NCBI GenBank assembly: GCA_040006935.1
Contig: JBDTVZ010000001.1
Coordinates: forward strand, 103,772 to 167,771
DNA from: Candidatus Dojkabacteria bacterium
GTDB taxonomy: Bacteria > Patescibacteriota > Dojkabacteria > J137
Length of the DNA: 64,000 nucleotides
Direction of reading: 5' to 3'
Under the pieces are notes generated by a model. It saw only the letters and a list, made by a program, of their open reading frames with translations. It was not told where the DNA came from and made no database searches. Every line of letters starts with the position of its first letter. Position 1 is the first letter of the stretch. This document shows, in pieces, positions 2,736-42,752 of this stretch. Made by a program: the position numbers and the translations under genes.

Positions 2736-2741
2736 AAAAAA

Positions 2742-2813
2742 TGAGGCTACGGAGAATCGAACTCCGATTACCAGATTGAAAATCTGATGTCCTAACCGTT
2801 AGACGATAGCCCC
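2742..2813 (-). tRNA. tRNA-Glu (anticodon UUC)
   Basis: The minus strand reads GGGGCTATCGTCTAACGGTTAGGACATCAGATTTTCAATCTGGTAATCGGAGTTCGATTCTCCGTAGCCTCA. The 7-bp acceptor stem, D arm, TCAGA/TCTGG anticodon stem, TTTTCAA loop and TTCGATT T-loop are all present. No CCA is encoded. Confidence 0.85.
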
Positions 2814-3120
2814 ATTTTTTTCAATTTTAAACTTATCTATTATCCCTTTCTTTATTTGCCAATTACCTTTAACTTCGAGTTCTCTTTTTCTAGCACTAGT
2901 TTTATTTAAGTAGGTTTCAGTATAAACTAATTCATAAGGTATTCTAGACTTTGTTGATCTAACTAATCCCTTATTATGCCTTACTAATCTTGCCTCTACA
3001 TTACTAGTTATTCCGACATAATACCATTCTTTTTTATTACTTTTCAGAATATATAGAAAATACATATCTAATTATAACTTGATTACAGATTGTCACCCGA
3101 AGGGTGATCCCTTTGGGAAA
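2781..3120 (-). mobile_element. putative tRNA-Glu-associated insertion carrying the GIY-YIG gene and a regenerated tRNA 5' half
   Basis: A 340-bp segment lies between two identical 40-bp copies of the tRNA 5' half (2781-2820 and 3121-3160). It contains a UUCG-tetraloop hairpin and the GIY-YIG ORF. Confidence 0.4.
2799..3065 (-). CDS. GIY-YIG nuclease family protein (small stand-alone URI domain)
   Basis: 88 aa. YFLYILKSNKKEWYYVGITSNVEARLVRHN...VYTETY matches the GIY-YIG consensus (YxYIL..S..G..YIG.T.nl..Rl.eHn). The last 15 nt, including the TAA stop, overlap tRNA-Glu positions 1-15. Confidence 0.8.
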   Translation of the reverse strand: MYFLYILKSNKKEWYYVGITSNVEARLVRHNKGLVRSTKSRIPYELVYTETYLNKTSARKRELEVKGNWQIKKGIIDKFKIEKNGAIV

Positions 3121-3160
3121 AATCTGATGTCCTAACCGTTAGACGATAGCCCCATTTTTT
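3121..3160. repeat. 40-bp direct repeat duplicating tRNA-Glu positions 1-33 plus 7 nt of 5' flank (identical to 2781-2820); tRNA fossil
   Basis: Exact identity aatctgatgtcctaaccgttagacgatagccccatttttt at both sites. The upstream copy continues into a 25-nt hairpin insertion (CCAAAGGGATCACCCTTCGGGTGAC), then a remnant of tRNA positions 37-47, then diverges. Confidence 0.8.
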
Positions 3161-3286
3161 CTAATTCTGATTTGTATTTGCGGTGTATTATAGCGTTTTT
3201 GATTAATTTCATCAATAATTTAATGAGCATCCCTCTCCTTGAAAAGGACCTGTCTGCAACATCAATATTGTTAGCATATCTACATG

Positions 3287-3326
3287 GTCAGGCAAGGAGG
3301 GGGGACCGCTTGCGGTGGGTGAGGTC
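3287..3326. repeat. degenerate family B repeat (..GGAGGGGGGACC..GGTGGGTGAGGT)
   Basis: Shares the GGGTGAGGT 3' motif. It lies in a GC-rich island with no convincing ORF. Confidence 0.4.
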
Positions 3327-4414: not shown

Positions 4415-6934
4415 ATTCCTAATTGATTTTTCTAGATTAATTCCTTTGCCTACAACTGGTTTCCATAAATCTCCCATTTTATCTAGACGTTTTGAAAGAG
4501 TTTTAATTGTGTAATCTTTAACATCAAGTTTATTATTAACTTCGGACCATTTTAAAGGTGTAGAAACTGACGCCTTAACAACTGGACGAACAGAGTAGAC
4601 GGAAGCAGTTGTTTGACCACTTCGGTTTTGAAGGAAATCTATATATACTTTCCCTTTTCTTTTATCTGGAGATCTTTCTAAACTCACAATGTTTGGCAAT
4701 CTCTTACTGATTGAAATACTAATTATCTCTGAGAATTGTTTTGATTGCTCATAGGTATATTTTGTACCAAGTGGAGTATAGATATGCAATCCTCGTTTAC
4801 CGGAAGTCTTAATATAGTTATCTACCTCGATCTTATCCAAAAGTTCGTGAATTTCTAAAGCAACTTTAATTGTATATTTAAAATCCGCATCATTAGGATC
4901 TACATCAAAAATCATATAGTCTGGATTTTCAATTGAATCTATTCTCGAATCCCAAGGATTAATTTCAATACAACCTAAATTAACCATATAAATTAAAGTT
5001 TCCACATTATTACAAAGAATGTAATCAATAATCCTCTTTCTATTGCCTGAATAAATTCCATAAGTTTTAACAAAGTCCGGATGCGATTGCTCCAAGTCTT
5101 TATGGTAAAAACTCACACCCTCAATACCATCGGGATGCCTGTTCATATTCTGAGGTCGGTCTTTTAAGTATGGCAGAATAAAATCAGATATTTCTAAATA
5201 AAACTTTGCTAAATCTTTTTTCGTATATTTATCCTTAGGCCAATAGATCTTTTGAGGATTTGAGATTAACTCAAGTGGATCATGTTTTGTTTTACTATCC
5301 TGAGATTCATCTCTCCCGCCTGACTGCGCAAGTCGGGCAGGTAATTGATAATTCTTAATTGATAATTCAGTTAGATCATCGGGCTTTTTATCATCTCTGA
5401 TTCGCTGAAATATTGCTTGCCTTAGCATTCCTTCTTTCGTAACTTCTGCATAGTTAACTTCACAAACTAAAATTGGTTCTACAAATACACTTGAATTTGG
5501 AACTGGAGCATCATATTTAAATGGTGAGGAGTCACGCCTATGCTTATCTAGAAGCTCCCTAATTTCTTTAAGAGATTTATTATCGAATCCACTTCCCGTA
5601 TTACCAATATATTTTAAATTTCCATCTTGAAAAGTTCCGAGAAGTAGAGAACCAAAGTGTTCTCTTATCTCAGTTGGTTTGGTATAACCACATATTAAAC
5701 AATCTAACTCATTTACTTTCTTAAATTTCTTCCAATCATCTGATCTTTCTCCACTTCTGTAAATAGAGTCAGCTTTTTTTGCAACAACACCTTCAAAACC
5801 CTTTTTAATCATTTTAGTAAATAATGTTTTCCCTTTTGTCTCTACATAATCTTGAAGTACAATATTATCTTCAAAATTCACTTTTTTATAGAATTCAGCT
5901 AAGGCCTTTTTTCTCTCAATAAGTGGTAACGTTCGTAGATCTAAATTATCTAAAGAGAGCAGATCAAAAACCGTATACACTAAATCTCCTTTTTGAGAGT
6001 TAGGATAATCTTGGAGTAATTCGAATTGTGGAACCTTTTTTTTATTTAAAACGGATATCTCACCATCGATAATTGCATTTACATTAATTTTTTCTAGAGA
6101 TTCAATTAAACTTGGGTACTTTGAATTCAAATTTATTTGATTTCTCGAAAATAATTTTGCCTTTCCATTTTCTAATACTGCAATTGCCCTATATCCATCC
6201 ATTTTAGACTCAAAAATCCAATCTTTATTATCAAAAGGCTTTTCCGCAACAGAAGCAAGCATGGGTAAAGTAAGTCTTGAAGATTTGAGATTTTCAATTT
6301 TGTTTGTTAAATTATCTTCTTCTTTATTCTCTTTTCTCTTTTCTTTATTTGACTCCCACACAATCTCAGTATTTTCAATTTCCTCCATACTTTTCCCACT
6401 TTTTGCAGATAAAGCTTCTTTCTCAATCTTTGTCCCATCAAACTCATCTTTATCTTTGATAAATAACCAAGCATTTTCTCCAGCCTTCTTAAAACGTACT
6501 AAGGCAAATAACCCATGCAATTTCTTTCCAAATAACTCTAATTTTATTTCTCCTTTTTCCAAGCCATCCGCAATAGCTTTATCTGCTTCATTTTGATCTT
6601 TGATATTTGGAATTTGATATTTACCTAGATCCCAAACCATTACTGTACCAGCACCATAATTACCTTCTGGAATAGTTCCTTCAAAATCGTAATAATTCAC
6701 AGGATGATCCTCAACCATCATTGCTAAATGCTTTTCTTTAGAACTAGTTGGAACACCTTTAGGGACAGCCCAACTTTTTAAAACACCATCAGTCTCAATT
6801 CTGAAGTCAAAATGCAATCTCGTGGCTAAATGTTTTTGTACCACAAATCTCATCTTCCCTTCGTCAGATTTAACACCAGAAGGTTCAGGTGTATTCTTAA
6901 AATTTCTTTTTTCATTATATTTTTCTAAAGCCAT
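4394..6934 (-). CDS. ligD: multidomain ATP-dependent DNA ligase LigD (3'-phosphoesterase, ligase and polymerase domains)
   Basis: 846 aa. N-terminal PE domain (RFVVQKHLATRLHFDFRIE..LKSWAVPKG). Ligase motif I KMDGYR. C-terminal polymerase/primase domain (KRGLHIYTPL). Adjacent to ku. Confidence 0.9.
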   Translation of the reverse strand: MALEKYNEKRNFKNTPEPSGVKSDEGKMRFVVQKHLATRLHFDFRIETDGVLKSWAVPKGVPTSSKEKHLAMMVEDHPVNYYDFEGTIPEGNYGAGTVMVWDLGKYQIPNIKDQNEADKAIADGLEKGEIKLELFGKKLHGLFALVRFKKAGENAWLFIKDKDEFDGTKIEKEALSAKSGKSMEEIENTEIVWESNKEKRKENKEEDNLTNKIENLKSSRLTLPMLASVAEKPFDNKDWIFESKMDGYRAIAVLENGKAKLFSRNQINLNSKYPSLIESLEKINVNAIIDGEISVLNKKKVPQFELLQDYPNSQKGDLVYTVFDLLSLDNLDLRTLPLIERKKALAEFYKKVNFEDNIVLQDYVETKGKTLFTKMIKKGFEGVVAKKADSIYRSGERSDDWKKFKKVNELDCLICGYTKPTEIREHFGSLLLGTFQDGNLKYIGNTGSGFDNKSLKEIRELLDKHRRDSSPFKYDAPVPNSSVFVEPILVCEVNYAEVTKEGMLRQAIFQRIRDDKKPDDLTELSIKNYQLPARLAQSGGRDESQDSKTKHDPLELISNPQKIYWPKDKYTKKDLAKFYLEISDFILPYLKDRPQNMNRHPDGIEGVSFYHKDLEQSHPDFVKTYGIYSGNRKRIIDYILCNNVETLIYMVNLGCIEINPWDSRIDSIENPDYMIFDVDPNDADFKYTIKVALEIHELLDKIEVDNYIKTSGKRGLHIYTPLGTKYTYEQSKQFSEIISISISKRLPNIVSLERSPDKRKGKVYIDFLQNRSGQTTASVYSVRPVVKASVSTPLKWSEVNNKLDVKDYTIKTLSKRLDKMGDLWKPVVGKGINLEKSIRNLQSIIA
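5315..5341. repeat. GC-rich imperfect hairpin, family A-like (CCCGCCTGAC-TGCGCAA-GTCGGGCAGG), in frame inside ligD
   Basis: 9 of 10 bp pair in the stem. It encodes the LigD linker segment ARLAQSGGR and is preceded by TATCCTGAG. Confidence 0.5.
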
Positions 6935-18652: not shown

Positions 18653-19876
18653 CTGGAGTCTTAAAATAGCTTTCTTCACAAAATCTTGAATTTCTCTTCT
18701 TACAGTCAATTTATTTTCTAGGTTTAAATTTATATTAGAATTTACCAAATTGATAAGTTCTGTTCTGTATCGTTTTAAAAACTTATACTTTACAGAATTA
18801 ATATAAGGAATGTAATTCTTTTCGTAAATATTTGGGAAATTATTTGTATCTAAAGTTTTCGGAACTGCGATAGCAATCACTTTGAATATTCCAAAACTAG
18901 TAACTTCATGGTTCATTTTAATGGAAAATAAGGTTCCCATAATCATGTGTGGTGGAAACCCAAGTTTTACATATTCTTCCCCGTAGCAGATTGGCCAGGC
19001 AACTCCAGTTTTTTCATAGACAGTAACTTCTGAATTGATTTTATTTTGTGATCTTAAAAATGGTGAAATTCCAACATCAAAGAATACTGTGTTATTTTTC
19101 ACCGCTGAAAGTAAAGGCTCAGATTCTGCTTTTTTAACTAATCTATCAAACGCTTTAACAATATCTTTTAAGTCGCCACTATTTGCTCTAGGTTGAGTCA
19201 ATAATTTGAATCCCCCTTTATGTAGTTCCAATGTTGGAGCAAGATTAAATCCATCTAATGCTTTCTGAATTACTTCATCAGAGCCATAAATTTCTTCTAA
19301 TTTATTTCTAGCGATCTCAATGGCAGAGTTAGATGAAAGAGTTAGAGCGTTAAAACACAATTCATTTAGATCTATAGAAACTTCAGGAAAACTTTCCGCT
19401 TTCCAATTATATAAACCCACATCATTTCCTTTTAATTTTGCTCTTAATTTACTTTTTACATTTGAAATTCTATTTTTATTAAGCCAAATTATGACTTCTT
19501 TGTAATCCGGATTCTGAAGAATATGTTGATATTGCTTCCTAAAAATTAATTCTTTAACTAAATCTTTTGTTGCTTTGAATTGTTTATTCCTCTGTGTCAT
19601 TCCGACCGTGCCCGACGGCAGGCGGGACGAAGTCGAGGAACTATCAGAATTAAGTGATTTTGATAAAAGAGACATTGTAAATGGTTTTGAAGTACTAGCA
19701 AGGTTAACTATAGAGTTTTCAGTTGTCAGTTTTGAGTTATTAGAAATAACAACTCCGTCTTTCACAACAACACTTAATGTATTCCATTCATAAGTCGACC
19801 TAACATCCAATTTATAAGGATCAAATCCAGGTTTATAATTTTTGAAGAATTTTCCTAACGTTAAGTTTTTTTCCAC
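18641..19876 (-). CDS. hypothetical protein (a GC-rich repeat is inserted in frame near the N-terminus)
   Basis: Uninterrupted 411-aa ORF in an AT-rich genome. The segment SSSTSSRLPSGTVGMTQ is encoded by a family A hairpin repeat at 19595-19640. Confidence 0.5.
   Translation of the reverse strand: MEKNLTLGKFFKNYKPGFDPYKLDVRSTYEWNTLSVVVKDGVVISNNSKLTTENSIVNLASTSKPFTMSLLSKSLNSDSSSTSSRLPSGTVGMTQRNKQFKATKDLVKELIFRKQYQHILQNPDYKEVIIWLNKNRISNVKSKLRAKLKGNDVGLYNWKAESFPEVSIDLNELCFNALTLSSNSAIEIARNKLEEIYGSDEVIQKALDGFNLAPTLELHKGGFKLLTQPRANSGDLKDIVKAFDRLVKKAESEPLLSAVKNNTVFFDVGISPFLRSQNKINSEVTVYEKTGVAWPICYGEEYVKLGFPPHMIMGTLFSIKMNHEVTSFGIFKVIAIAVPKTLDTNNFPNIYEKNYIPYINSVKYKFLKRYRTELINLVNSNINLNLENKLTVRREIQDFVKKAILRLQLLF
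19595..19640. repeat. family A GC-rich hairpin repeat (TGTCATTCCGA...CGAAGTCGAGGAA), in frame inside ORF 18641-19876
   Basis: 46-bp island of about 65% GC in AT-rich coding sequence. Shares GTCATT..CGA and CGAAG termini with the other family A copies. Confidence 0.6.
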
Positions 19877-19906: not shown

Positions 19907-22468
19907 TTAAATAAGCCCCATCTGTTCCGGATGAATCTTCTTTGGCGTTTTTGGGCCACCCTTGTTGTCATTGCGAGACTCCGTCTTGGACGGAGACGAA
20001 GCAATCCCAGAATTTTCAAATTTATTCAAAATTTCATTCGCCCTCTTAGTTACCTCCACAGGAACCCCAGCAAGTTTAGCCACATGAACACCGTAACTCT
20101 TATTCGCAGATCCGGCTTCAATTTTATGAGTGAACAAAATTTCTTCTTTTTCTTTGTCATCTACAACTTTAACATTAAAATTCTTAATGCATTTATATTG
20201 TGATTCTAAAGAAATTAATTCGTGATAATGTGTTGCAAACAAAGTTTTTGCTTTTATATGTTCTTGTAAATATTCTACTATTGACCAAGCAATTGCAACT
20301 CCATCATAAGTTGAAGTTCCTCTCCCAACCTCGTCTAAAATTATTAAACTTTGACTTGTAGCATTATTTAAGATATTAGCTGTCTCTGTCATTTCTACCA
20401 TGAAAGTAGATTCTCCTTTAGATAAATTATCTGATGCTCCAACCCGTGTAAAAATTCTATCTACTATTTGGAACTTCATTTCTTTTGCTGGAACGTAACT
20501 TCCAATTTGTGCCATGAGTGTTATTAAAGCTACTTGCCTAATATAAGTAGATTTACCGGACATGTTTGGTCCTGTCAGAATATGAATTAAAGAATCCTCA
20601 GAAAATTCTGTTGAGTTTGGAATAAATTTCTCAACTAGTCTTTCTACAACTGGATGACGACCATCAGTAATCAGTGTTGAGTTATCAGTTTTCAGATTCT
20701 CTGATTTCTGAGAACTGACGACTGATGGCTTAGTATAGTTAAACTCTCTCGCTATAAATCCAAAGTTAACAATAACATCAACTTCTGCAATTGCATTTCC
20801 AACGGCTAAAAGCATTTGAGAATAATCTGCGAGTTTATTTCTAATTTCTATAAATAACTCTTGTTCTAATTTTATTAATTTCTCTTCAGCACTTAAAATT
20901 TTAACTTCTAATTCTTTTAATTCTTGAGTTATGTATCTTTCTGCATTTGCTAAAGTTTGCTTTCGAATATAATCCTCTGGGACTTTATCTAAATGAGTTC
21001 GTGTAATTTCAATGTAATACCCAAACACATTGTTGAAAGAGATTTTCAAACTTGTAATTTTAGTTCGTTCAATTTCTCGTTTCTGAATTTCCGCAAGAAT
21101 TTGTTTTGAATTTGATCTTAAATTTCTAAGTTCATCAACCTCAGCATGATATCCTGACTTCAAAATTCCTCCATTATTAATTAAAGCAGAAGGTTCGTTA
21201 TCGATTGACTTGTCAATAAAATCAATGACTTCTTTTATTTTCTCATTTTGCAATTCTCTCATTAAAAATGAAAGTCGTGTAGGTAACTCTTCTGAAGATA
21301 ATTGATTAGAAATATTAATTATATTTATCAAACTATTTTTCAAACCAACGAGGTCTTTTGGATTTGCACCACCAACTCCAATTCTTCCAACGATTCTTTC
21401 TATATCTGCAATTCGATAAAATTTATCTCTTAATTCCGAAATCAGTTGAGGTTTATTAAAAAAGAATTCTACTGAATCATGACGTTCTTTAATCATTACC
21501 ACATTTACTAAAGGATTTAAAATCCAATTTCGTAATTTTCTTTTTCCCATTGGGTTCGTAGCTCTATTAATAATAGAGTAGAGTGTTGGAGAATCGTGTC
21601 CTGAATTTGTAAATAATAATTCCAAATTTCGAATAGTTTCGAAGTCTAACTTCATGTAATCGTTAAAAGAATAACTTTGTATTCCTCTAATGTGTTTAAT
21701 ATCTCCTTTTTGACAATCTATTAAGTAACAAATTAAAGCACCGGCTGAAGTTACAATTGCAATATCTTCAGGCTTAGAATCTTTTATGGTTGATTTCTGA
21801 TTAACATTCAAACCAAAACCTTTTAACGAGCTTACTTTAAACTGTTTTTCTAAAATGATTACTGAATCTTTTAAATCAAACAATTTATCATCTAATTTCT
21901 GTAATCTGTTACCTTGAATCTTTAATATATCTTCATACTGTGAAGCCGGGCAAATTATCTCCGAAGGATTTATTTTCTTTAGCTCATTCTTAAGTGTAAT
22001 CTCAGAATTTGTTGTAAACGACTTTAGTTCCCCAGTAGTCAAATCACAAAAAACTAACCCATAACTGATGACTGATGACTGACCACTCATGACTACTGAA
22101 GCAATGTAATTATTTTTAGAAGAGTCTAAAGAATTTTCATCAATAATAGTTCCTGGTGTAATTATTTTGGTAATACTTCTTTCTACTAATTTACCAGGCA
22201 CTGCCGCTTCCATTTGTTCTGCAATAGCGATCTTGAGGCCAGCTTCAACAAGCCTAGGCATGTAATTTGGAAGAGCATGATAAGGAATTCCTGCTAAAGG
22301 TTGCCTGTTTTCATCTTTTCCTCGGCTCGTAAGCGTAATTCCTAAAACTCTAGATACTGTTTCTGCATCTTCATCAAAGGTTTCGTAAAAATCCCCAAGA
22401 CGAAATAGGATCACTGTTCCAGGATTTTCAGATTTTATTTTTTTGAACTGCTCCTGCATTGGAGTCAT
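19907..22468 (-). CDS. mutS: DNA mismatch repair protein MutS
   Basis: 853 aa. N-terminal GDFYE.F..DA mismatch-binding motif. Walker A GPNMSGKST. TH.HEL motif. The C-terminal tail contains a repeat-encoded segment. Confidence 0.9.
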   Translation of the reverse strand: MTPMQEQFKKIKSENPGTVILFRLGDFYETFDEDAETVSRVLGITLTSRGKDENRQPLAGIPYHALPNYMPRLVEAGLKIAIAEQMEAAVPGKLVERSITKIITPGTIIDENSLDSSKNNYIASVVMSGQSSVISYGLVFCDLTTGELKSFTTNSEITLKNELKKINPSEIICPASQYEDILKIQGNRLQKLDDKLFDLKDSVIILEKQFKVSSLKGFGLNVNQKSTIKDSKPEDIAIVTSAGALICYLIDCQKGDIKHIRGIQSYSFNDYMKLDFETIRNLELLFTNSGHDSPTLYSIINRATNPMGKRKLRNWILNPLVNVVMIKERHDSVEFFFNKPQLISELRDKFYRIADIERIVGRIGVGGANPKDLVGLKNSLINIINISNQLSSEELPTRLSFLMRELQNEKIKEVIDFIDKSIDNEPSALINNGGILKSGYHAEVDELRNLRSNSKQILAEIQKREIERTKITSLKISFNNVFGYYIEITRTHLDKVPEDYIRKQTLANAERYITQELKELEVKILSAEEKLIKLEQELFIEIRNKLADYSQMLLAVGNAIAEVDVIVNFGFIAREFNYTKPSVVSSQKSENLKTDNSTLITDGRHPVVERLVEKFIPNSTEFSEDSLIHILTGPNMSGKSTYIRQVALITLMAQIGSYVPAKEMKFQIVDRIFTRVGASDNLSKGESTFMVEMTETANILNNATSQSLIILDEVGRGTSTYDGVAIAWSIVEYLQEHIKAKTLFATHYHELISLESQYKCIKNFNVKVVDDKEKEEILFTHKIEAGSANKSYGVHVAKLAGVPVEVTKRANEILNKFENSGIASSPSKTESRNDNKGGPKTPKKIHPEQMGLI
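19965..20007. repeat. family A hairpin repeat (TTGTCATTGCGAGACTCCGTCTTGGACGGAGACGAAGCAATCC), in frame in the mutS 3' end
   Basis: Inner hairpin ACTCCGTC-TTG-GACGGAG. It encodes the MutS tail segment IASSPSKTESRNDNKGGP. Confidence 0.65.
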
Positions 22469-22505: not shown

Positions 22506-22739
22506 TTATTTAACTTCACGAAACTCTGCATCTTCTGCTTGAGGCTTATTATCTGATTTCTTTTGTTTAGTAACCTTCTTCGCTTTCTTAGTTCCGGAAA
22601 GTTCATCAAATAAATCCTGAAACTGTTTATATTTCAATTGTCCCTTCTCCTTCAGAACGAACAGATAATAAATAATCGCGACTGAGAATACAACAAAAAC
22701 ACCGAAACACATTAAACTTAGGAATTCGAAAATAAACAT
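22506..22739 (-). CDS. small membrane protein (N-terminal transmembrane helix, basic C-terminal tail)
   Basis: 77 aa. The N-terminal 41 aa are about 85% identical to ORF 23610-23798. Confidence 0.4.
   Translation of the reverse strand: MFIFEFLSLMCFGVFVVFSVAIIYYLFVLKEKGQLKYKQFQDLFDELSGTKKAKKVTKQKKSDNKPQAEDAEFREVK
22618..22739. repeat. direct repeat copy 1 (5' part of the small membrane-protein gene)
   Basis: About 120 bp with roughly 80% identity to 23687-23798. The first 47 nt are near-identical. Confidence 0.7.
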
Positions 22740-22867
22740 AATTTTAATTTAATATTTAATTGCCCTAAATTATACCTAATGGCAGAAGAGTTGTAATTGA
22801 ATAATTTCCTTGTGATATTTTTTGATAATAACTATAATTTCTTTGTTTAACTTCTTAAAACAGAACT

Positions 22868-23671
22868 ATGTTTAAAATAATATATAGAGCTATTGTAGAC
22901 TTTTTACTTCTAAGAGAAAGATTAGATACAATCATAAATTGGCCAAAAGTAAAAGAAACTCACCCAAATCCTTTAGTTAGAAAAGGTCAAAAGTTTTTTT
23001 CCCAATTTGATGAGGATGGAATTATTTCTGAAATTTGTAGAAGATTGAAATTAGAAAAAGGAAATTTTTTTGAAATTGGTGTAGGGGACGGAAGCGAATG
23101 TAACACTGTAAACTTACTTTTCAAAGGTTGGAGAGGCGCTTGGGCAGGAAACGAGAAATTATTCTTTAATTCAAAGGAGCAGAACCTAAAATATTTAAAT
23201 ACATTTGTAACAATGGATAATATAAGTGAAGTTCTTGGAAATGTTCAAACATTTCTAGGAGAAGGAAAATCTATCGATTTATTCTCATTAGATATTGATG
23301 GAGTTGATTATTGGATAGGAAAAGAAATATTATCTACAATTAAGCCTAAAATTGTTATTGTTGAATACAATTCTCATTTTGAGCCACCAATTGAATATAT
23401 TACTGACTATAAAGCAGATCTTGTTTGGGATAGAACAAATAGATATGGCGCTTCTTTACAAGCATGGGTAAATTTATTCGAGCCAATGGGTTATAAGTTA
23501 GTTTGTTGCAACTATACTGGTAGTAATGCATTCTTTATTCAGAATAGCGAGATGGAAGCATTTAGAGATGTTCCTACAGATATTAATGAACTATTTATGC
23601 CACCTAACTTTAAGATTGGATATTCCACAGGACATAAATTATCTGCCGAAGTTTGTGAAAAATACTCATAA
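22868..23671 (+). CDS. FkbM family methyltransferase
   Basis: 267 aa. FFEIGVGDGSE...IDLFSLDIDGVDYWIG..IL...KPKIVIVEYN matches Methyltransf_21 (FkbM) motifs. Confidence 0.55.
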   Translation: MFKIIYRAIVDFLLLRERLDTIINWPKVKETHPNPLVRKGQKFFSQFDEDGIISEICRRLKLEKGNFFEIGVGDGSECNTVNLLFKGWRGAWAGNEKLFFNSKEQNLKYLNTFVTMDNISEVLGNVQTFLGEGKSIDLFSLDIDGVDYWIGKEILSTIKPKIVIVEYNSHFEPPIEYITDYKADLVWDRTNRYGASLQAWVNLFEPMGYKLVCCNYTGSNAFFIQNSEMEAFRDVPTDINELFMPPNFKIGYSTGHKLSAEVCEKYS

Positions 23672-23798
23672 TAATTTGAAACTGTTTATATTTCAATTGT
23701 CCCTTCTCTTTCAGAACGAAGAGATAATATATAATTCCAACAAATAAAACAACAAAAGATACGAAACAAATTAAAGATAGAAATTCGAAAATATACAT
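23610..23798 (-). pseudogene. truncated or chimeric duplicate of the small membrane-protein gene at 22506-22739
   Basis: Only the first ~41 codons are conserved. The 3' part overlaps the 3' end of the FkbM gene on the opposite strand. Confidence 0.3.
23687..23798. repeat. direct repeat copy 2
   Basis: See 22618-22739. The two copies flank the FkbM methyltransferase gene. Confidence 0.7.
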
Positions 23799-23917
23799 AT
23801 AATTTAGTTAAAACTTAAAAGCTACTAATTATAACGGATGTGTGAATATGTAACCAGAAGAGATTTTATTTACAATAAAAGTATTTGTTGCTAAAATATC
23901 CTATATTTAAATAACCT

Positions 23918-24580
23918 ATGATAAAAAACGTATTAGTTTTAATAGTATCTGTAGTAATTTTAATACTACTAGTCATTTCGTGTGCATTATCTCTAAATTA
24001 TTATAATTCTAGATCTAGGATAACCTTCACAAATAAAGATATTTCTTTAAATGACTTTAAAGAAAAGACTTATTTAACATTACCTGCAAGCGTAAAGTCA
24101 TTTAGTATTACAGAAGATAGAACTGAAAAGCATGGTATGTCAAACAGAATTGCTTTAATTAATCCTAAGTTTATAAAAATTGAGTTTGATGAAGCAGGCT
24201 ATAAAGAATTTTTAGCTACTAAAAGATTGGATGATCCTAAATATTCTACTCAATTTGCTCCACATTCAAAACTTGAGGAATTCTGTTATGTAATGCAGGA
24301 TGGAATTTTACAATATGGAGGAACTAAATATTCAGCTTATCATGGGCAAGAACTATCAATATATGCTGATAATCCTAAAGATTGTTCTTATACTTATCAA
24401 GAAATATATTTTGATGATACTTTAAAGCCAATCAGTATTGTTACTCCTGGGTTTGCTTCTACAGATACTGATGAGAACATGGTAAGCTATGGAACTTTTC
24501 AAGATTTTGATTTTAATTACTATATAAAAGTAATTAAAGGAGAAACAATTCAAGTTTTTATTTATATGGAACCTATTTAA
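23918..24580 (+). CDS. hypothetical signal-anchored protein
   Basis: 220-aa ORF with an N-terminal transmembrane segment. Confidence 0.4.
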   Translation: MIKNVLVLIVSVVILILLVISCALSLNYYNSRSRITFTNKDISLNDFKEKTYLTLPASVKSFSITEDRTEKHGMSNRIALINPKFIKIEFDEAGYKEFLATKRLDDPKYSTQFAPHSKLEEFCYVMQDGILQYGGTKYSAYHGQELSIYADNPKDCSYTYQEIYFDDTLKPISIVTPGFASTDTDENMVSYGTFQDFDFNYYIKVIKGETIQVFIYMEPI

Positions 24581-25630: not shown

Positions 25631-25676
25631 TGTCATTGCGAGTAGTCCCGAGAATCGGGACGACGTGCAATGACAA
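25631..25676. repeat. family A nested hairpin repeat (TGTCATTGCGAG-TAGTCCCGAGAATCGGGACGA-CGTGCAATGACA)
   Basis: Outer inverted repeat TGTCATTGCG / TGCAATGACA, with an inner perfect hairpin GTCCCGA-GAA-TCGGGAC. Confidence 0.7.
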
Positions 25677-27142: not shown

Positions 27143-27212
27143 ACCTCACCCGTCTCTCACTACGTTCGAGCCACCCTCTCCATCGAGGATGGAGAGGGGC
27201 TGGGGGTGAGGT
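27142..27212. repeat. family B composite nested hairpin (ACCTCACCC ... CCCTCTCCATC-GAG-GATGGAGAGGG ... GGGGGTGAGGT)
   Basis: Outer inverted repeat ACCTCACCC / GGGTGAGGT and an inner perfect 11-bp hairpin. It starts at the asnS stop codon. Confidence 0.7.
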
Positions 27213-27231
27213 AATTATTATTAAAAATTTT

Positions 27232-38864: not shown

Positions 38865-38937
38865 ATTATTAAATTAAGAAAATACTACCCTAATAATAAA
38901 GCTATTTGAAATGTAATTCACTAATAAAAATCATAAA

Positions 38938-38970
38938 AAAGACTTAGATTCCTCAAGTCTTTTTAATGGC
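38938..38970. terminator. bidirectional intrinsic terminator (AAAAAGACTT-AGATTCCTC-AAGTCTTTTT)
   Basis: Hairpin flanked by an A-run and a T-run. It lies immediately 3' of the predicted rnpB on the minus strand. Confidence 0.6.
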
Positions 38971-39366
38971 CCATTCCGTAAGCCGAATTCTGTGTTTAAA
39001 AGAATAATTTCTCTATGCCCACTATGTGGTTGCTCCAGACAGGGGTTACCAGCATCCTAATATTACTATTAGAACCGGTGGTCTCTTACACTTGTCCCGT
39101 CTTGTATTTCTACAATTCAAGACAATTCCCGAAAAACGGGAACACCATTTCACAATTCCTCTTCTTCCCCCTCTCCTGTTAAGGAGAGGGTTGGGGTGAG
39201 GTTTTTCTTTCTGTTGCCCTCTTAGCTACTCGATGAGTTAGCACCCTAAGATTACTCCCAGCCGATCTCCTTTCGGATACGCGGTGTCTTTTTTTGGAGT
39301 CCGGACTTTCCTCTTGTATATATTTCAATATTACAAATATATACAAGCTATTCTTTGGAATGGACC
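38966..39366 (-). ncRNA. rnpB: RNase P RNA (bacterial type A-like)
   Basis: On the minus strand, P1 is formed by GGUCCAUUCC (5') and GGAAUGGGCC (3'). A P3 hairpin is CUUGUAUAUAU...AUAUAUACAAG. The P4 5' strand GGAAAGUCCGGACUCC matches E. coli GGAAAGUCCGGGCUCC at 15 of 16 positions. GGGCAACAGAAAG corresponds to GUGCAACAGAGAG, and GUAAGAGACCACC to GUAAGAGCGCACC. GGUAACCCCUGUCUGGAGCAACCACAUAGUGGG corresponds to GGUAAACUCCACCCGGAGCAAGGCCAAAUAGGGG, and ACAGAAUUCGGCUUAC to ACAGAACCCGGCUUAUC. A TTATAAT -10 box lies upstream and the terminator downstream. Confidence 0.85.
39167..39202. repeat. family B repeat (CCCCTCTCCTGTTAAGGAGAGGGTTGGGGTGAGGT), located within rnpB (P12 region)
   Basis: Perfect hairpin CCTCTCC-TGTTAA-GGAGAGG followed by TTGGGGTGAGGT, preceded by ACAATTCC as in the other copies. 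Confidence 0.7.
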
Positions 39367-39386
39367 AGTGTAATTATAACATGGAA

Positions 39387-39423
39387 GTGTCATTGCGGGC
39401 ACGAAGTGCGAAGTAATGACACA
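39387..39423. repeat. family A hairpin repeat (GTGTCATTGCGGGCACGAAGTGCGAAGTAATGACAC) in the rnpB upstream region
   Basis: Termini GTGTCATTGCG / GTAATGACAC form an imperfect inverted repeat. Confidence 0.6.
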
Positions 39424-39426
39424 ATT

Positions 39427-39460
39427 CCCTCTCCTTTTAAGGAGAGGGTTAAGGTGAGGT
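39427..39460. repeat. family B repeat (CCCTCTCCTTTTAAGGAGAGGGTTAAGGTGAGGT)
   Basis: Near-identical to 39167-39202 and also preceded by ACAATTCC. Confidence 0.7.
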
Positions 39461-39497
39461 CATAGCGCACCGAAAGCACACCTAATTCTGTGCGCTC

Positions 39498-39893
39498 CTA
39501 TTTAATCTCAGGATATTTACCTGGTTGTCTTAGATAAATATCAATTACTGCCTGATTATCAGGATTGACCTCATTAAACTCAACAAACGCTCTTTCTTTA
39601 AAGCCACCAGCCTTTTGTCTTTTTCTTTCCATTTCAGTTTCTAGTTGTTCTCTGGAAATTTCTAATTCTTCTAGTATTGTGTTTATTATTTCTTGAATAT
39701 CAGCCAACTCTCCCAGAATTTCTTCAGATGATGCAACTCTAAGTTCACTTGCTTCTTCTAGAAGTTTTCTTATTAGTTCTACTATAAATTCCTTAGAATC
39801 TAATTTATGCCATGTTGTCTTCTGACCTGGGTCATTCTGCATTGCTTTAATTATGTTATCTCTAACCAATTTTTTAAATTCAAATTTTCTCAT
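39498..39893 (-). CDS. MazG-like nucleotide pyrophosphohydrolase domain protein
   Basis: 131 aa. KLVRDNI...EEASEL...ELADIQEII are all-alpha NTP-PPase (MazG/PRA-PH-like) motifs. Confidence 0.55.
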   Translation of the reverse strand: MRKFEFKKLVRDNIIKAMQNDPGQKTTWHKLDSKEFIVELIRKLLEEASELRVASSEEILGELADIQEIINTILEELEISREQLETEMERKRQKAGGFKERAFVEFNEVNPDNQAVIDIYLRQPGKYPEIK

Positions 39894-42073: not shown

Positions 42074-42502
42074 TTAATAGTTAATTCCCTCCTTTATTAA
42101 AGGAGGGGTAGGGGAGGATTTAGAGCCAATCTCCTGTTTTCTGATTTCAAATTCTTTCAGCAATTTCTCTTTTATTAGTTCGATGTTACCTGTTAACTCA
42201 TGATTCCAGAACCTGATTAGCTTAATCCCTACTGATTCTAAGACAATAGTTCTATAATTATCATACTCTTCCTTTCCTTCATGAGACTCTCCATCAAGTT
42301 CTATTCCCAAAAGCAACTTATCACAATAAAAATCTAATATAAAATTATCTATTGGTTTTTGCCTCAGCCATCTATAACCTAATTTATCTCTACGTAAAAC
42401 ATAATTCCATAGTACTTGCTCTGCTTTTGTAGGTAATGATCTATTCTGCCTTGCAAAAGTTTTCAATTTCTTATCGTATGGTTTGTGATATCTATTGTTC
42501 AT
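42074..42502 (-). CDS. DUF559 (Vsr/YcjD-like) endonuclease-domain protein
   Basis: 142 aa. LPTKAEQVLWNYVLRRDKLGYRWLRQKPIDNFILDFYCDKLLLGIELDGESH...LIRFWNHEL closely matches E. coli YcjD and DUF559. The C-terminal tail is encoded by a family B repeat. Confidence 0.8.
   Translation of the reverse strand: MNNRYHKPYDKKLKTFARQNRSLPTKAEQVLWNYVLRRDKLGYRWLRQKPIDNFILDFYCDKLLLGIELDGESHEGKEEYDNYRTIVLESVGIKLIRFWNHELTGNIELIKEKLLKEFEIRKQEIGSKSSPTPPLIKEGINY
42083..42119. repeat. family B repeat, plus orientation (AATTCCCTCCTTTATTAAAGGAGGGGTAGGGGAGGAT), overlapping the 3' end of the DUF559 gene
   Basis: Hairpin CCCTCCTTTA / TAAAGGAGGG followed by a G-rich tail. Confidence 0.65.
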
Positions 42503-42507
42503 AAAAA

Positions 42508-42545
42508 ATCCCTCCCTGCCCTCCCTTTTACAAAGGGAGGGATTA
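42508..42545. repeat. family B repeat, minus orientation (revcomp AATCCCTCCCTTTGTAAAAGGGAGGGCAGGGAGGGAT), immediately upstream of the DUF559 start codon
   Basis: Inverted relative to 42083-42119. Together the two copies bracket the gene. Confidence 0.65.
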
Positions 42546-42752
42546 TAAAACTCACTACAATAACAAAAAAAGTCGTCTCAGAATAAAAATTAATTTACTC
42601 TGGGACGACTCTTTTAACAAGCTTGCCGCGGTTCCACCCATTTTTCTCGAATCCGAGACTCTTTATATTAAGTTTTATCAAAAGCATGCCATTGCTTTAC
42701 TACAGAAATTATACAATACCAATTATGGTATTGCAATTTCTGTTAGTTTAGC

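What the first reader, a model, noticed from the sequence alone, without database searches (positions are those of the whole stretch)
38938..39497. Unannotated RNase P RNA gene on the minus strand, with a dispersed-repeat copy embedded in its P12 region
The 630-bp gap without ORFs contains a bacterial RNase P RNA. It has a P1 pairing GGUCCAUUCC/GGAAUGGGCC, a P3 hairpin, and a P4 strand GGAAAGUCCGGACUCC that matches the E. coli sequence at 15 of 16 positions. Further blocks match E. coli M1 RNA (GCAACAGAAAG, GUAAGAGACCACC, GGUAAC..CUGGAGCAA..AUAGUGGG, ACAGAAUUCGGCUUAC), and a bidirectional terminator follows. The segment corresponding to the variable P12 stem (plus 39167-39202) is a full copy of the family B repeat that occurs at least five more times in this window. 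A second family B copy and a family A hairpin lie in the rnpB promoter region at 39387-39460. Either a REP-like element has colonised the dispensable P12 helix of a catalytic RNA, or P12 was the source of the repeat family.
Basis: partly seen in the sequence, partly recalled or inferred. Interest (0 to 1): 0.65.

Follow-up and report, generated by a model that had tools for sequence, protein, structure and literature searches.

The report
RNase P RNA carrying a selfish hairpin
The gap holds a real RNase P RNA gene from a Dojkabacteria (CPR) genome, and its outer P12 helix has been replaced by a copy of a small GC-rich palindromic selfish element found across several bacterial phyla; this is a new example of a known kind of event, not a new kind of system.

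Summary
**Gene.** Rfam RF00010 matches window 38963-39367 (minus strand) over the full model (101.8 bits, E 5e-30).

**Organism.** A Candidatus Dojkabacteria MAG with 32% GC.

**P12 repeat.** P12 reads ACCUCACCCCAA-CCCUCUCC-UUAACA-GGAGAGGG plus a decayed 3' arm. It is 91% identical over 34 nt to a copy 258 bp upstream. It has the same layout as copies at 27143-27212 and 3231-3325.

**Relatives.**
- Three relatives' rnpB genes, found by LeuRS-RecX synteny, have short or AT-rich P12 helices without the repeat.
- The same element occurs in another CPR contig (in-frame in IF-2), a Bacteroidetes MAG and cyanobacterial plasmids.
- So the element colonised P12. P12 is not its source.

**Link to DUF559.** The element flanks DUF559 (Vsr-like endonuclease) genes in inverted orientation in a second Dojkabacteria genome. 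Related hairpins flank the DUF559 gene in this window. This suggests DUF559 cassettes carry or mobilise it.

**Is the gene still working?** The conserved core, an extended -10 box shared with relatives and a terminator are intact, so the RNA is probably functional. This is inferred, not shown.

**Precedents.** STRR repeats in cyanobacterial P12, Rickettsia RPEs and yeast mitochondrial GC clusters.

**Verdict.** Observation confirmed. Moderate interest.

The parts
38963..39367 (-). rnpB, the RNase P RNA gene, bacterial class A, 405 nt
   Evidence: RF00010 match of 101.8 bits, E 5e-30, over the full model. The MFE fold has z = -6.5 against shuffles.
39155..39206 (-). P12 helix made of a family B palindromic element. 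RNA sense: ACCUCACCCCAA-CCCUCUCC-UUAACA-GGAGAGGG-GGAAGAAGAGG. Element core on the plus strand is 39169-39202.
   Evidence: - 34 nt, 91% identical to 39427-39460.
- Folds as a 4-bp base (CCUC/GAGG), a 7x7 internal loop and a 9-bp distal stem, -22.5 kcal/mol.
- Aligned to P12 of the model.
- Absent from relatives.
- Aligns with copies from other genomes.
39092..39143 (-). Lineage-specific 52-nt insertion in the P13 loop, forming two hairpins. It is not a dispersed repeat.
   Evidence: - The CM alignment shows 62 nt where the model has 11.
- Absent in L088, L211 and L210.
- Folds with z = -4.8.
- No other copy in the window or the fetched loci.
39313..39348 (-). Extended AU-rich P3 hairpin
   Evidence: CM alignment. 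Longer than in relatives.
39373..39381 (-). Extended -10 promoter element TGTTATAAT, 5-6 nt upstream of the predicted 5' end
   Evidence: Read directly from the sequence. The same TGTTATAATTACAC is found upstream of rnpB in L088, and TGATATAAT in L211. The consensus scan did not flag it because there is no -35 box.
39387..39422 (-). Family A GC-rich hairpin (GTGTCATT...AATGACAC) sitting where a -35 box would be
   Evidence: Fold of -16.3 kcal/mol, z = -3.05. Related GTCATTGCGA...GCAATC-type islands lie at 19953-20010, 19587-19647 and 25636-25674.
39427..39460 (-). Second family B copy, in the same orientation as the P12 copy and 258 bp upstream of it
   Evidence: (D2, 91% identity), and a fold with z = -3.7.
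39464..39496 (-). Third GC-rich hairpin (AGCGCAC...GTGCGCT) immediately after the stop codon of the upstream NTP pyrophosphohydrolase gene
   Evidence: Read from the sequence. GC island.
38935..38964 (-). Terminator-like hairpin AAAAAGACUU-loop-AAGUCUUUUUU at the rnpB 3' end
   Evidence: Read from the sequence. Not flagged by the scan because the stem is AT-rich.
27143..27212 (+). Full palindromic family B copy (ACCTCACCC...CCCTCTCC-loop-GGAGAGGG...GGGGGTGAGGT) directly after the asparaginyl-tRNA synthetase stop codon
   Evidence: Fold of -39.4 kcal/mol, z = -3.8.
3231..3325 (+). Family B copy with a GGGTGAGGT tail; its hairpin is interrupted
42074..42541 (-). DUF559 endonuclease gene flanked by inverted hairpin-plus-tail elements (42510-42541 upstream; 42087-42120 at the 3' end). 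This is the candidate carrier or mobiliser of the element class.
   Evidence: Pfam PF04480, 98 bits. Flanks (third member of D2). The same architecture, with true family B ends, is seen in L219.

Best explanation
The 633-bp gap encodes the RNase P RNA (class A) of a Candidatus Dojkabacteria genome. It is a reduced CPR-type RNA in which P15-P17 is shrunk to an 11-nt hairpin and P18 is absent.

In this lineage it acquired a copy of a short GC-rich palindromic selfish element. The element is a hairpin CCCTCTCC/GGAGAGGG with an ACCTCACC/GGTGAGGT tail. It now forms essentially all of helix P12.

The element's own stem replaces the distal P12 helix. Four base pairs (CCUC/GAGG), between the element's tail and a decayed 3' arm, form the P12 base. 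Because distal P12 is peripheral, the ribozyme tolerates the insertion and most likely remains functional.

The element belongs to a family spread over several phyla. That family inserts into intergenic DNA, in-frame into protein linkers, and here into a structured RNA. In Dojkabacteria it forms the inverted ends of small DUF559 (Vsr-like endonuclease) cassettes, which probably carry or mobilise it.

**Shown:** the gene, the repeat identity, absence from relatives, the cross-phylum distribution, and the DUF559 flanking arrangement.

**Inferred:** that the RNA is still active, that the element was inserted rather than gene-converted, and that DUF559 is the mobilising enzyme.
For: **Gene**
- RF00010 full-length hit, E 5e-30.
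- The conserved regions CR-I to CR-V align with relatives.
- An extended -10 box is conserved with L088 and L211.
- The fold has z = -6.5.

**Taxon**
- Flanking proteins are 100% identical to NCBI Dojkabacteria MAG proteins on a 516,739-bp contig.
- CPR RNase P RNAs are known to lack P13/14/16/17 and the CCA-binding motif and to score low (PMC8172020).

**Repeat**
- 31 of 34 nt identical between the P12 copy and the upstream copy.
- Hairpin and tail motifs are far above the shuffle expectation.

**Derived state**
- Relatives' P12 helices carry no repeat:
  - L088: ACUACUCAUAUA...UAUAUGAGU
  - L211: ACCGCCAGACUUGUCUGGUAAGG
  - L210: ACUUCCCAGAUUAGUCUGGGAG
- A broad rnpB sample shows none.

**Family found elsewhere**
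- L085, in-frame in IF-2 (SSIPSPKLGEGRKGEV).
- L052, a Bacteroidetes MAG.
- Pseudanabaena and other cyanobacterial plasmids.
- Joint alignment A3.

**DUF559 link**
- In L219 the DUF559 gene is flanked by hairpin+AAGGTGAGGT upstream and ACCTCATC+hairpin at its 3' end.
- The window's DUF559 gene is flanked by related inverted hairpins.
- In Pseudanabaena a DUF559 domain bracketed by such hairpins lies in-frame inside a methyltransferase.
- 43 of 118 DUF559 homologues carry proline-rich hairpin-type motifs in their C-terminal tails, against 7 in the core.
- The Vsr/DUF559 clade contains a bona fide homing endonuclease (PMC3424549).

**P12 tolerance**
- Repeats in cyanobacterial rnpB, and P12 being dispensable there (Vioque 1997, as cited in PMC2858038).
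Against: - No expression or activity data exist. The CM score (101.8) is only just above the gathering threshold and 40-60 bits below relatives (143-162), because of the P12 and P13 insertions.
- Only 64 kb of a contig of at least 517 kb was visible, so a second rnpB or a protein-only RNase P elsewhere cannot be excluded.
- The relatives used are fairly distant (LeuRS 65-72% identical). The closest one (L087, whose rnpB 3' half is nearly identical) has a contig that ends inside P13, so its P12 is unknown.
- No target-site duplication or empty-site/filled-site pair at close range was seen.
- The DUF559 association is correlative. The motif count used a motif defined after looking at the data.
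- The window's own DUF559 flanks are only about 62% identical to family B.
Confidence: 0.8

Rival explanations
1. P12 is the source. An ancestral, lineage-specific P12 hairpin of this rnpB was copied and dispersed to create family B.
For: The P12 copy and the copy 258 bp upstream are each other's closest relatives in the window (91%). They share the following AATTGTG. The leading ACC of the element coincides with the conserved ACC that starts P12 in other bacteria.
Against: - Three relatives' P12 helices are unrelated.
- The same tail-spacer-stem architecture occurs in a Bacteroidetes MAG, in cyanobacterial plasmids and in another CPR contig, inside protein genes.
- It forms the ends of DUF559 cassettes in another Dojkabacteria genome.
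Confidence: 0.03
2. The gene is a decaying pseudogene. The P12 and P13 insertions inactivated it, and RNase P function is supplied from elsewhere in the genome.
For: The score is barely above the gathering threshold and well below relatives. There are two lineage-specific insertions in the specificity domain. Only 64 kb of the genome was examined.
Against: - All conserved regions, P1, P4, L14 and the L13 GUAAGAG are intact.
- The promoter -10 box is conserved with relatives, and a terminator is present.
- The nearly identical 3' half in L087 differs mainly in loop positions.
- CPR rnpB genes commonly score low (PMC8172020).
- P12 is dispensable in other bacteria (PMC2858038).
Confidence: 0.1
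3. The resemblance is a chance or convergent one. P12 simply evolved a GC-rich stable hairpin that looks like the repeat.
For: P12 is a hairpin in all bacteria, and a GC-rich stem could be selected for stability in a 32% GC genome.
Against: The identity extends beyond the stem to the non-pairing tail ACCTCACC and the spacer (31 of 34 nt; alignment A3). The motifs have about 0 expected occurrences in shuffles.
Confidence: 0.02
4. The element is mobile, but DUF559 does not move it. It spreads by another enzyme (a RAYT-type or unknown transposase) or by recombination or gene conversion, and DUF559 genes are just another frequent neighbour or target.
For: - Most copies in the window are far from the single DUF559 gene.
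- The window's DUF559 flanks are divergent from family B (62%).
- Family A hairpins co-occur without any obvious enzyme.
- Yeast mitochondrial GC clusters spread without a dedicated known enzyme (PMC4478555).
Against: Exact family B ends flank DUF559 in inverted orientation in L219. A hairpin-DUF559-hairpin unit sits in-frame in a Pseudanabaena gene, while a paralogue has hairpins alone near the same motif. Hairpin-type motifs are enriched in DUF559 tails.
Confidence: 0.4

Closest known systems
Bacterial RNase P RNA class A (Rfam RF00010), in the reduced forms described for CPR bacteria (Lui et al. 2021, PMC8172020)
   Same: - Full-length CM match with P1-P4 core, CR-I to CR-V, P12, P13 and P14.
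- P16/P17/P18 and the CCA-binding loop are lost.
- The Rfam score is low, as reported for many CPR genomes.
   Different: P12 is built from a dispersed GC-rich palindromic element. The P13 loop carries a unique 52-nt two-hairpin insertion. Close relatives have neither.
STRR (short tandemly repeated repetitive) sequences inside the rnpB gene of heterocyst-forming cyanobacteria (Vioque 1997, NAR 25:3471; cited in PMC2858038)
   Same: [quoted passage not shown] That the STRR sit in P12 rests on my memory of the paper, plus PMC2858038 citing it for P12 being dispensable in cyanobacteria.
   Different: STRR are tandem heptamer arrays. Here a single palindromic hairpin-plus-tail element is present and there is no tandem array. 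The phylum differs, and the element is shared across phyla.
Rickettsia palindromic elements (RPE; PMC1779305)
   Same: Short palindromic selfish repeats in a small AT-rich genome. They are found both between genes and in-frame inside essential protein genes, and are tolerated because they land in permissive positions.
   Different: RPEs are 100-150 bp, restricted to Rickettsiales and unrelated in sequence. Family B is about 35-70 bp, GC-rich and associated with DUF559 genes.
Palindromic GC clusters of yeast mitochondrial genomes (PMC4478555)
   Same: GC-rich palindromes in a very AT-rich genome, showing presence/absence polymorphism, merging of units, and occasional location inside genes.
   Different: The host is an organelle, the sequences are unrelated, and there is no associated endonuclease gene.
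REP/REPIN elements mobilised by RAYT transposases (PMC3116915, PMC3733652)
   Same: Short extragenic palindromes present in many copies, thought to be non-autonomous derivatives mobilised in trans by one enzyme.
   Different: The ends carry no GTAG/CGTC tag and no RAYT was identified. The copies also occur in-frame in ORFs and in an RNA gene. The candidate enzyme is a PD-(D/E)xK (DUF559) nuclease, not a Y1 transposase.
Vsr/DUF559-clade homing endonucleases such as I-Bth0305I (PMC3239194; PMC3424549, row 58)
   Same: A small PD-(D/E)xK Vsr-like nuclease encoded in a compact selfish insertion.
   Different: I-Bth0305I lives in a self-splicing group I intron. Here the gene is bounded by GC hairpins with no intron or intein. 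No homing has been shown.

Membership tests
Bacterial RNase P RNA class A (RF00010) | Covariance-model score at or above the curated gathering threshold over the full model | tested here: met
   101.8 bits against a threshold of 100, E 5.4e-30, model positions 1-367, not truncated.
Bacterial RNase P RNA class A (RF00010) | Catalytic core: P1-P4 with both P4 strands conserved (GAGGAAAGUCCGG... and ACAGAA..CGGCUUA) | tested here: met
   Both strands are present and aligned with high posterior probability. They are conserved with relatives.
Bacterial RNase P RNA class A (RF00010) | Specificity domain with the J11/12 ACAGAAA and J12/13 GUGAAA modules, and the type A helices P13 and P14 | tested here: met
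   GCAACAGAAAG, UUGUGAAAUGGUG, the L13 GUAAGAG and the P14 hairpin are present. P13 carries a 52-nt insertion.
Bacterial RNase P RNA class A (RF00010) | P15-P17 with the GGU loop that pairs with the tRNA 3' CCA, and P18 | tested here: not met
   52 + 26 model positions are replaced by 7 + 6 nt; P15 is an 11-nt hairpin, CCACAUAGUGG. This is a known variation in CPR and cyanobacteria (PMC8172020), so it does not exclude membership. The tRNA genes in the window do not encode CCA.
Bacterial RNase P RNA class A (RF00010) | Endonucleolytic 5' maturation of pre-tRNA | not testable with these tools
   Requires an in vitro or in vivo assay.
Dispersed palindromic repeat family B (hairpin CCCTCTCC/GGAGAGGG plus tail ACCTCACC) | Several copies sharing stem, spacer and tail sequence, above chance | tested here: met
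   Alignment A3 includes copies from four other genomes.
Dispersed palindromic repeat family B (hairpin CCCTCTCC/GGAGAGGG plus tail ACCTCACC) | Presence/absence at orthologous sites, as the signature of insertion | tested here: met
   P12 of L088, L211 and L210 lacks it. The upstream region of rnpB in L088 and L211 lacks the GC hairpins.
Dispersed palindromic repeat family B (hairpin CCCTCTCC/GGAGAGGG plus tail ACCTCACC) | Target-site duplication or a defined insertion mechanism | tested here: inconclusive
   No flanking direct repeat is evident at the P12 or upstream copies. The relatives are too diverged to reconstruct the empty site.
REP/REPIN (RAYT-mobilised) | GTAG or CGTC tetranucleotide at one end of the palindrome | tested here: not met
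   The ends are ACCTCACC.../...GGAGAGGG, with no GTAG/CGTC tag. The criterion is from PMC3733652.
REP/REPIN (RAYT-mobilised) | A RAYT (IS200/IS605-type Y1 transposase) gene flanked by the repeats | not tested
   Only 10 of the window's ORFs were scanned against Pfam. None was a Y1 transposase. The rest of the genome was not available.
STRR-type repeats in rnpB | Tandem heptanucleotide arrays | tested here: not met
   TRF finds no such array in 38900-39520.
DUF559 (PF04480) endonuclease cassette with hairpin ends | A DUF559 ORF bounded by inverted hairpin-plus-tail elements | tested here: met
   Window 42074-42541. L219 3950-4386 with true family B ends. In-frame version in L216.
DUF559 (PF04480) endonuclease cassette with hairpin ends | Endonuclease-driven mobility of the cassette or of solo hairpins | not testable with these tools
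   Needs biochemical or genetic assays. Only correlative evidence is available.

The most novel reading that the evidence does not exclude
Family B hairpins are the inverted ends of a compact selfish cassette built around a DUF559 (Vsr-like PD-(D/E)xK) endonuclease, with neither an intron nor an intein. The cassette spreads across phyla (CPR, Bacteroidota, Cyanobacteriota). Its ends are shaped so that they are harmless wherever they land. Translated, they give flexible P-x-P...G-E-G...G-E-V linkers. Transcribed, they form a stable stem that can stand in for a peripheral RNA helix. On this reading, the P12 of this ribozyme is a solo end or footprint of such a cassette. It would be the first case of this element class built into a catalytic RNA.
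Probability: 0.35. Interest if true: 0.65.

Novelty: new member of a known kind. Interest (0 to 1): 0.42.

Why it matters
**Annotation.**
- CPR RNase P RNAs sit at or below Rfam thresholds. Selfish-element insertions in P12 and P13 are one concrete reason.
- Masking such elements would improve rnpB detection and completeness checks for CPR genomes.

**RNA biology.**
- This is a natural experiment: an entire distal P12 can be swapped for an unrelated GC-rich hairpin in a minimal, AT-rich ribozyme.

**Mobile DNA.**
- The window links a cross-phylum family of GC-rich palindromes to DUF559 endonuclease genes.
- These palindromes are tolerated in intergenic DNA, inside proteins and inside a ribozyme.
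- If DUF559 proves to be their mobiliser, a very common 'domain of unknown function' would acquire a role.
- It would also explain many odd proline/glycine-rich inserts and tails in bacterial proteins.

Tried and rejected
1. **Synteny through the adjacent NTP pyrophosphohydrolase gene.** Its homologues (about 45-52% identity) lie in unrelated contexts with no rnpB nearby.

2. **Genome-collection scan with GlyRS.** This returned one Dojkabacteria contig without rnpB and 79 Bacteroidota loci. It was useful only for naming the taxon and as background DNA.

3. **Metagenome scan with the CR-I pattern GAGGAAAGTCYGGACTCCAA.** This returned 120 taxonomically broad rnpB loci rather than close relatives. 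They served only as a negative background for repeats in P12.

4. **Literature search by sequence strings.** Searching GGGGTGAGGT and similar strings found only primers and unrelated hits. Word searches for palindromic repeats in Patescibacteria, or for DUF559 mobility, found no description of this element.

5. **The P13 52-nt insertion as another repeat.** No other copy was found in the window or in 2.2 Mb of fetched loci.

6. **Sub-threshold Rfam hits on the repeats.** These were ilvH RNA (23.8 bits, E 0.18) on P12 and P14 sRNA on the upstream copy. I treat both as chance matches to GC hairpins.

7. **DUF559 homologues in the fetched loci.** tblastn found none, so the association had to be tested with the last protein search and the last contig look-up.

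8. **GGTGAGGT in the P13 5' strand of L211.** I considered this as possible target-site microhomology. I rejected it as insignificant, because only two variable positions of a conserved motif are involved.

9. **Assembly artefact.** Rejected. Both halves of the gene are colinear with relatives, and an assembler cannot create a coherent helix replacement.
Full report
**1.

A covariance-model scan of the whole window against Rfam 15 gives one RNase P hit. It is RF00010 (bacterial class A) at 38963-39367 on the minus strand: 101.8 bits (gathering score 100), E 5.4e-30, covering model positions 1-367 without truncation (repeated locally).

This includes P1 (GGUCCAUUCC/GGAAUGGGCC, with one G-U pair) and both P4 strands.

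- The 405-nt RNA folds far better than shuffles (z = -6.5).
- The gene lies in a 633-bp ORF-free gap between a 180-aa ORF and an NTP pyrophosphohydrolase gene.
- An extended -10 element, TGTTATAAT, ends 5-6 nt before the predicted 5' end.
- An A-run/stem/T-run hairpin follows the 3' end. The consensus scanner missed both, because there is no -35 box and the terminator stem is AT-rich.

**2. Organism and type of RNA**

Flanking proteins are 100% identical to NCBI proteins of a Candidatus Dojkabacteria MAG, on a 516,739-bp contig. The window has 32% GC.

The RNA is of the reduced CPR style. The 52 + 26 model positions of P15-P17 and P18 are replaced by 7 + 6 nt. Lui et al. reported that CPR RNase P RNAs often lack P13/14/16/17 and the CCA-binding motif, need manual refolding and fall below Rfam thresholds (PMC8172020). 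The borderline bit score is therefore expected.

**3. The repeat in P12**

In the CM alignment, the segment between the conserved ACAGAAAG and GUGAAAUGGUG is AAACCUCACCCCAACCCUCUCCUUAACAGGAGAGGGGGAAGAAGAGGAAUU.

It folds into three parts (-22.5 kcal/mol):
- a 4-bp base, CCUC/GAGG
- a 7x7 internal loop
- a 9-bp GC stem

Thirty-four nucleotides of it (plus strand 39169-39202) are 91% identical to 39427-39460, which lies 258 bp upstream in the same orientation.

- The hairpin pattern occurs only at these two sites; 0 are expected.
- The tail GGGTGAGGT occurs four times in the window against 0.14 expected.

Further copies:
- 27143-27212: a complete palindrome with both tails, placed right after the asparaginyl-tRNA synthetase stop codon.
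- 3231-3325: a copy with an interrupted hairpin.
- 42087-42120 and 42510-42541: more divergent hairpin-plus-tail elements flanking a DUF559 gene.

The 3' side of P12 (GGAAGAAGAGGAAUU) looks like a G-to-A decayed second tail; compare GGGGGTGAGGTAATT at 27202-27216. That reading is mine, from the sequence.

So 'family B' is real. 'At least five more copies' holds only if the two divergent ones are counted.

**4. Direction: colonisation, not origin**

I found relatives through the conserved LeuRS-RecX neighbourhood and scanned them with Rfam.

| Relative | LeuRS identity | rnpB score | P12 |
|---|---|---|---|
| L088 | 70% | 143 bits | ACUACUCAUAUA-uuuuaacuuaagUAAA-UAUAUGAGU |
| L211 | 65% | 162 bits | ACCGCCAGAC-UU-GUCUGGUAAGG |
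| L210 (partial rnpB) | 72% over part of its length | 111 bits | ACUUCCCAGA-UUAG-UCUGGGAG |

None has the GC-rich element. All have an ordinary P13.

- The extended -10 box is shared with L088 and L211, but the GC hairpins upstream of it are found only in the window.
- A broad metagenomic sample of rnpB genes gave 102 full-length segments and about 60 extracted P12 helices. No family A or B element was seen in P12.

The same tail-spacer-stem architecture also occurs in quite different places:
- in-frame inside IF-2 of another CPR-like contig (...IIG-SSIPSPKLGEGRKGEV-NIVL...)
- in a 58% GC Bacteroidetes MAG
- repeatedly in plasmids of Pseudanabaena and other cyanobacteria

The joint alignment is A3. 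A family with that distribution cannot have arisen from this lineage's P12.

**5. What the element is**

Within the window, GC-rich palindromes of families A and B sit in several kinds of place:
- in intergenic DNA
- in-frame in the C-terminal tail of MutS (19953-20010)
- in the interdomain linker of LigD (5299-5347)

This behaviour matches that described for Rickettsia palindromic elements (PMC1779305) and for yeast mitochondrial GC clusters (PMC4478555).

The new lead is an association with DUF559.

- **In the window.** The DUF559 gene (PF04480, 98 bits) is bracketed by inverted hairpin-plus-tail elements.
- **In a second Dojkabacteria genome (L219).** A DUF559 gene has CCCTCTCCTATCGAAGGAGAGG-AGCAAGGTGAGGT 15 nt before its start codon. 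Its 3' end carries ACCTCATCTAAATCTTCTCCTAAGTTAGGAGAAGA. These are family B ends in inverted orientation.
- **In Pseudanabaena plasmid pPg_02.** A hairpin-DUF559-hairpin unit lies in-frame inside a large methyltransferase gene. A paralogue carries hairpin-coded peptides alone next to the same DPACGSGHFL motif.
- **Across homologues.** Of 118 DUF559 homologues, 43 have proline-rich hairpin-type motifs in their short C-terminal tails, against 7 in the much longer core. The motif was defined after looking at the data, so this count is only indicative.

The Vsr/DUF559 clade includes a characterised homing endonuclease (PMC3424549; PMC3239194).

I therefore think it likely that DUF559 cassettes carry and perhaps mobilise these hairpins, and that solo hairpins such as the one in P12 are their derivatives. 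It is not shown. The rival, that another mechanism moves them, keeps substantial weight.

**6. Function of the RNA**

The following are intact:
- the core and both P4 strands
- CR-II and CR-III flanking P12
- the L13 GUAAGAG
- P14
- the promoter and the terminator

The literature treats distal P12 as dispensable in some bacteria. The title of Vioque 1997 states that repeats (STRR) occur inside the rnpB gene of heterocyst-forming cyanobacteria. PMC2858038 cites that paper for P12 being dispensable there. The paper itself could not be opened.

I infer that the RNA is functional and that the element's stem substitutes for the P12 helix.

A second lineage-specific change is a unique 52-nt two-hairpin insertion in the P13 loop. 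It is unexplained. P13 is thought to contact P12 (from memory), so the two changes could be linked.

**7. Comparison and novelty**

The gene is a member of RF00010. All core criteria are met, and the missing P15-P18 module is a known CPR variation.

- **REP/REPIN.** The element is not one in the strict sense. It has no GTAG/CGTC tag (PMC3733652) and no RAYT was seen.
- **STRR.** It is not an STRR array; there is no tandem array.
- **RPE.** It is not homologous to RPEs, but it behaves like them.

A repeat-family member inside the RNase P RNA gene already has a precedent in cyanobacteria. The finding itself is therefore a new member of a known kind.

The DUF559-hairpin cassette idea is the most novel reading that remains open.

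**8. Limits**

- Only 64 kb of the genome was available.
- The closest relative's contig (L087) ends inside P13, so its P12 is unknown.
- The collection scans and contig look-ups were exhausted.
- There are no expression or activity data.

Noticed in passing
window 2741-3166 (minus strand): The 5' 48 nt of tRNA-Glu (2741-2814) is duplicated at 96% identity at 3119-3166. An 88-aa GIY-YIG nuclease ORF (2799-3065; Pfam, 47 bits) lies between the two copies. The upstream partial copy continues into a GC hairpin, GGGATCACCCTTCGGGTGAC. This looks like a small GIY-YIG cassette that inserted at the tRNA gene and regenerated its 5' half.
   Followed up: partly
window 42598-42749 (minus strand); L088 7635-7773: A sub-threshold T-box leader (37 bits, E 1e-5) lies upstream of the DUF559 gene and glycyl-tRNA synthetase. 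The DUF559 cassette seems to sit between the leader and the gene it should regulate. The relative L088 also has a T-box-like leader (46 bits) upstream of its GlyRS operon.
   Followed up: partly
window 19953-20010, 19587-19647, 5299-5347: GC-rich palindromes lie in-frame inside ORFs. One is in the C-terminal tail of MutS, after domain V. One is in the linker between the ligase and primase-polymerase domains of LigD. One is near the start of an unassigned 411-aa ORF.
   Followed up: partly
window 39092-39143 (minus strand): A 52-nt two-hairpin insertion sits in the P13 loop of rnpB. It is absent from three relatives and has no other copy in the window. Its origin and role are unknown. It may be linked to the change in P12.
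   Followed up: partly
L087 9200-9317: The closest relative's contig (Dojkabacteria GCA_047445235.1) ends exactly inside rnpB, at the P13 3' strand. A repeat in its P12/P13 region breaking the assembly would explain this, but it could not be checked.
   Followed up: no
L216 (NZ_CP112876.1), L217, L218: Pseudanabaena galeata plasmids: Large DISARM-type or type II methyltransferase genes are riddled with in-frame hairpin-coded peptides, such as PSPPAPLPSGERG, PLSLNGRGAGGEG and SPRPLGEGLGVRE. One of these genes carries a complete DUF559 domain bracketed by such peptides.
   Followed up: partly
L088 4790-4825: Upstream of the relative's rnpB promoter there is a short tandem array GTCATTT(T/C) x4. 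Its GTCATT resembles the start of the family A hairpin (GTGTCATT) found at the equivalent place in the window.
   Followed up: no
L088 4880-5257 compared with the window: rnpB lies between RecX and GlyRS in both genomes, but in opposite orientation relative to LeuRS. This indicates a local inversion of the gene.
   Followed up: no
window 22618-22781 and 23677-23840: A 164-nt direct repeat at 79% identity, 1059 bp apart, lies in front of two adjacent ORFs (22868-23671 and 23918-24580). It was not examined.
   Followed up: no
window 39169-39202 and 39427-39460: The two family B copies are direct repeats bracketing the 5' half of rnpB and its promoter. Recombination between them would delete the catalytic-core 5' strand, which is a potential source of instability.
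   Followed up: no
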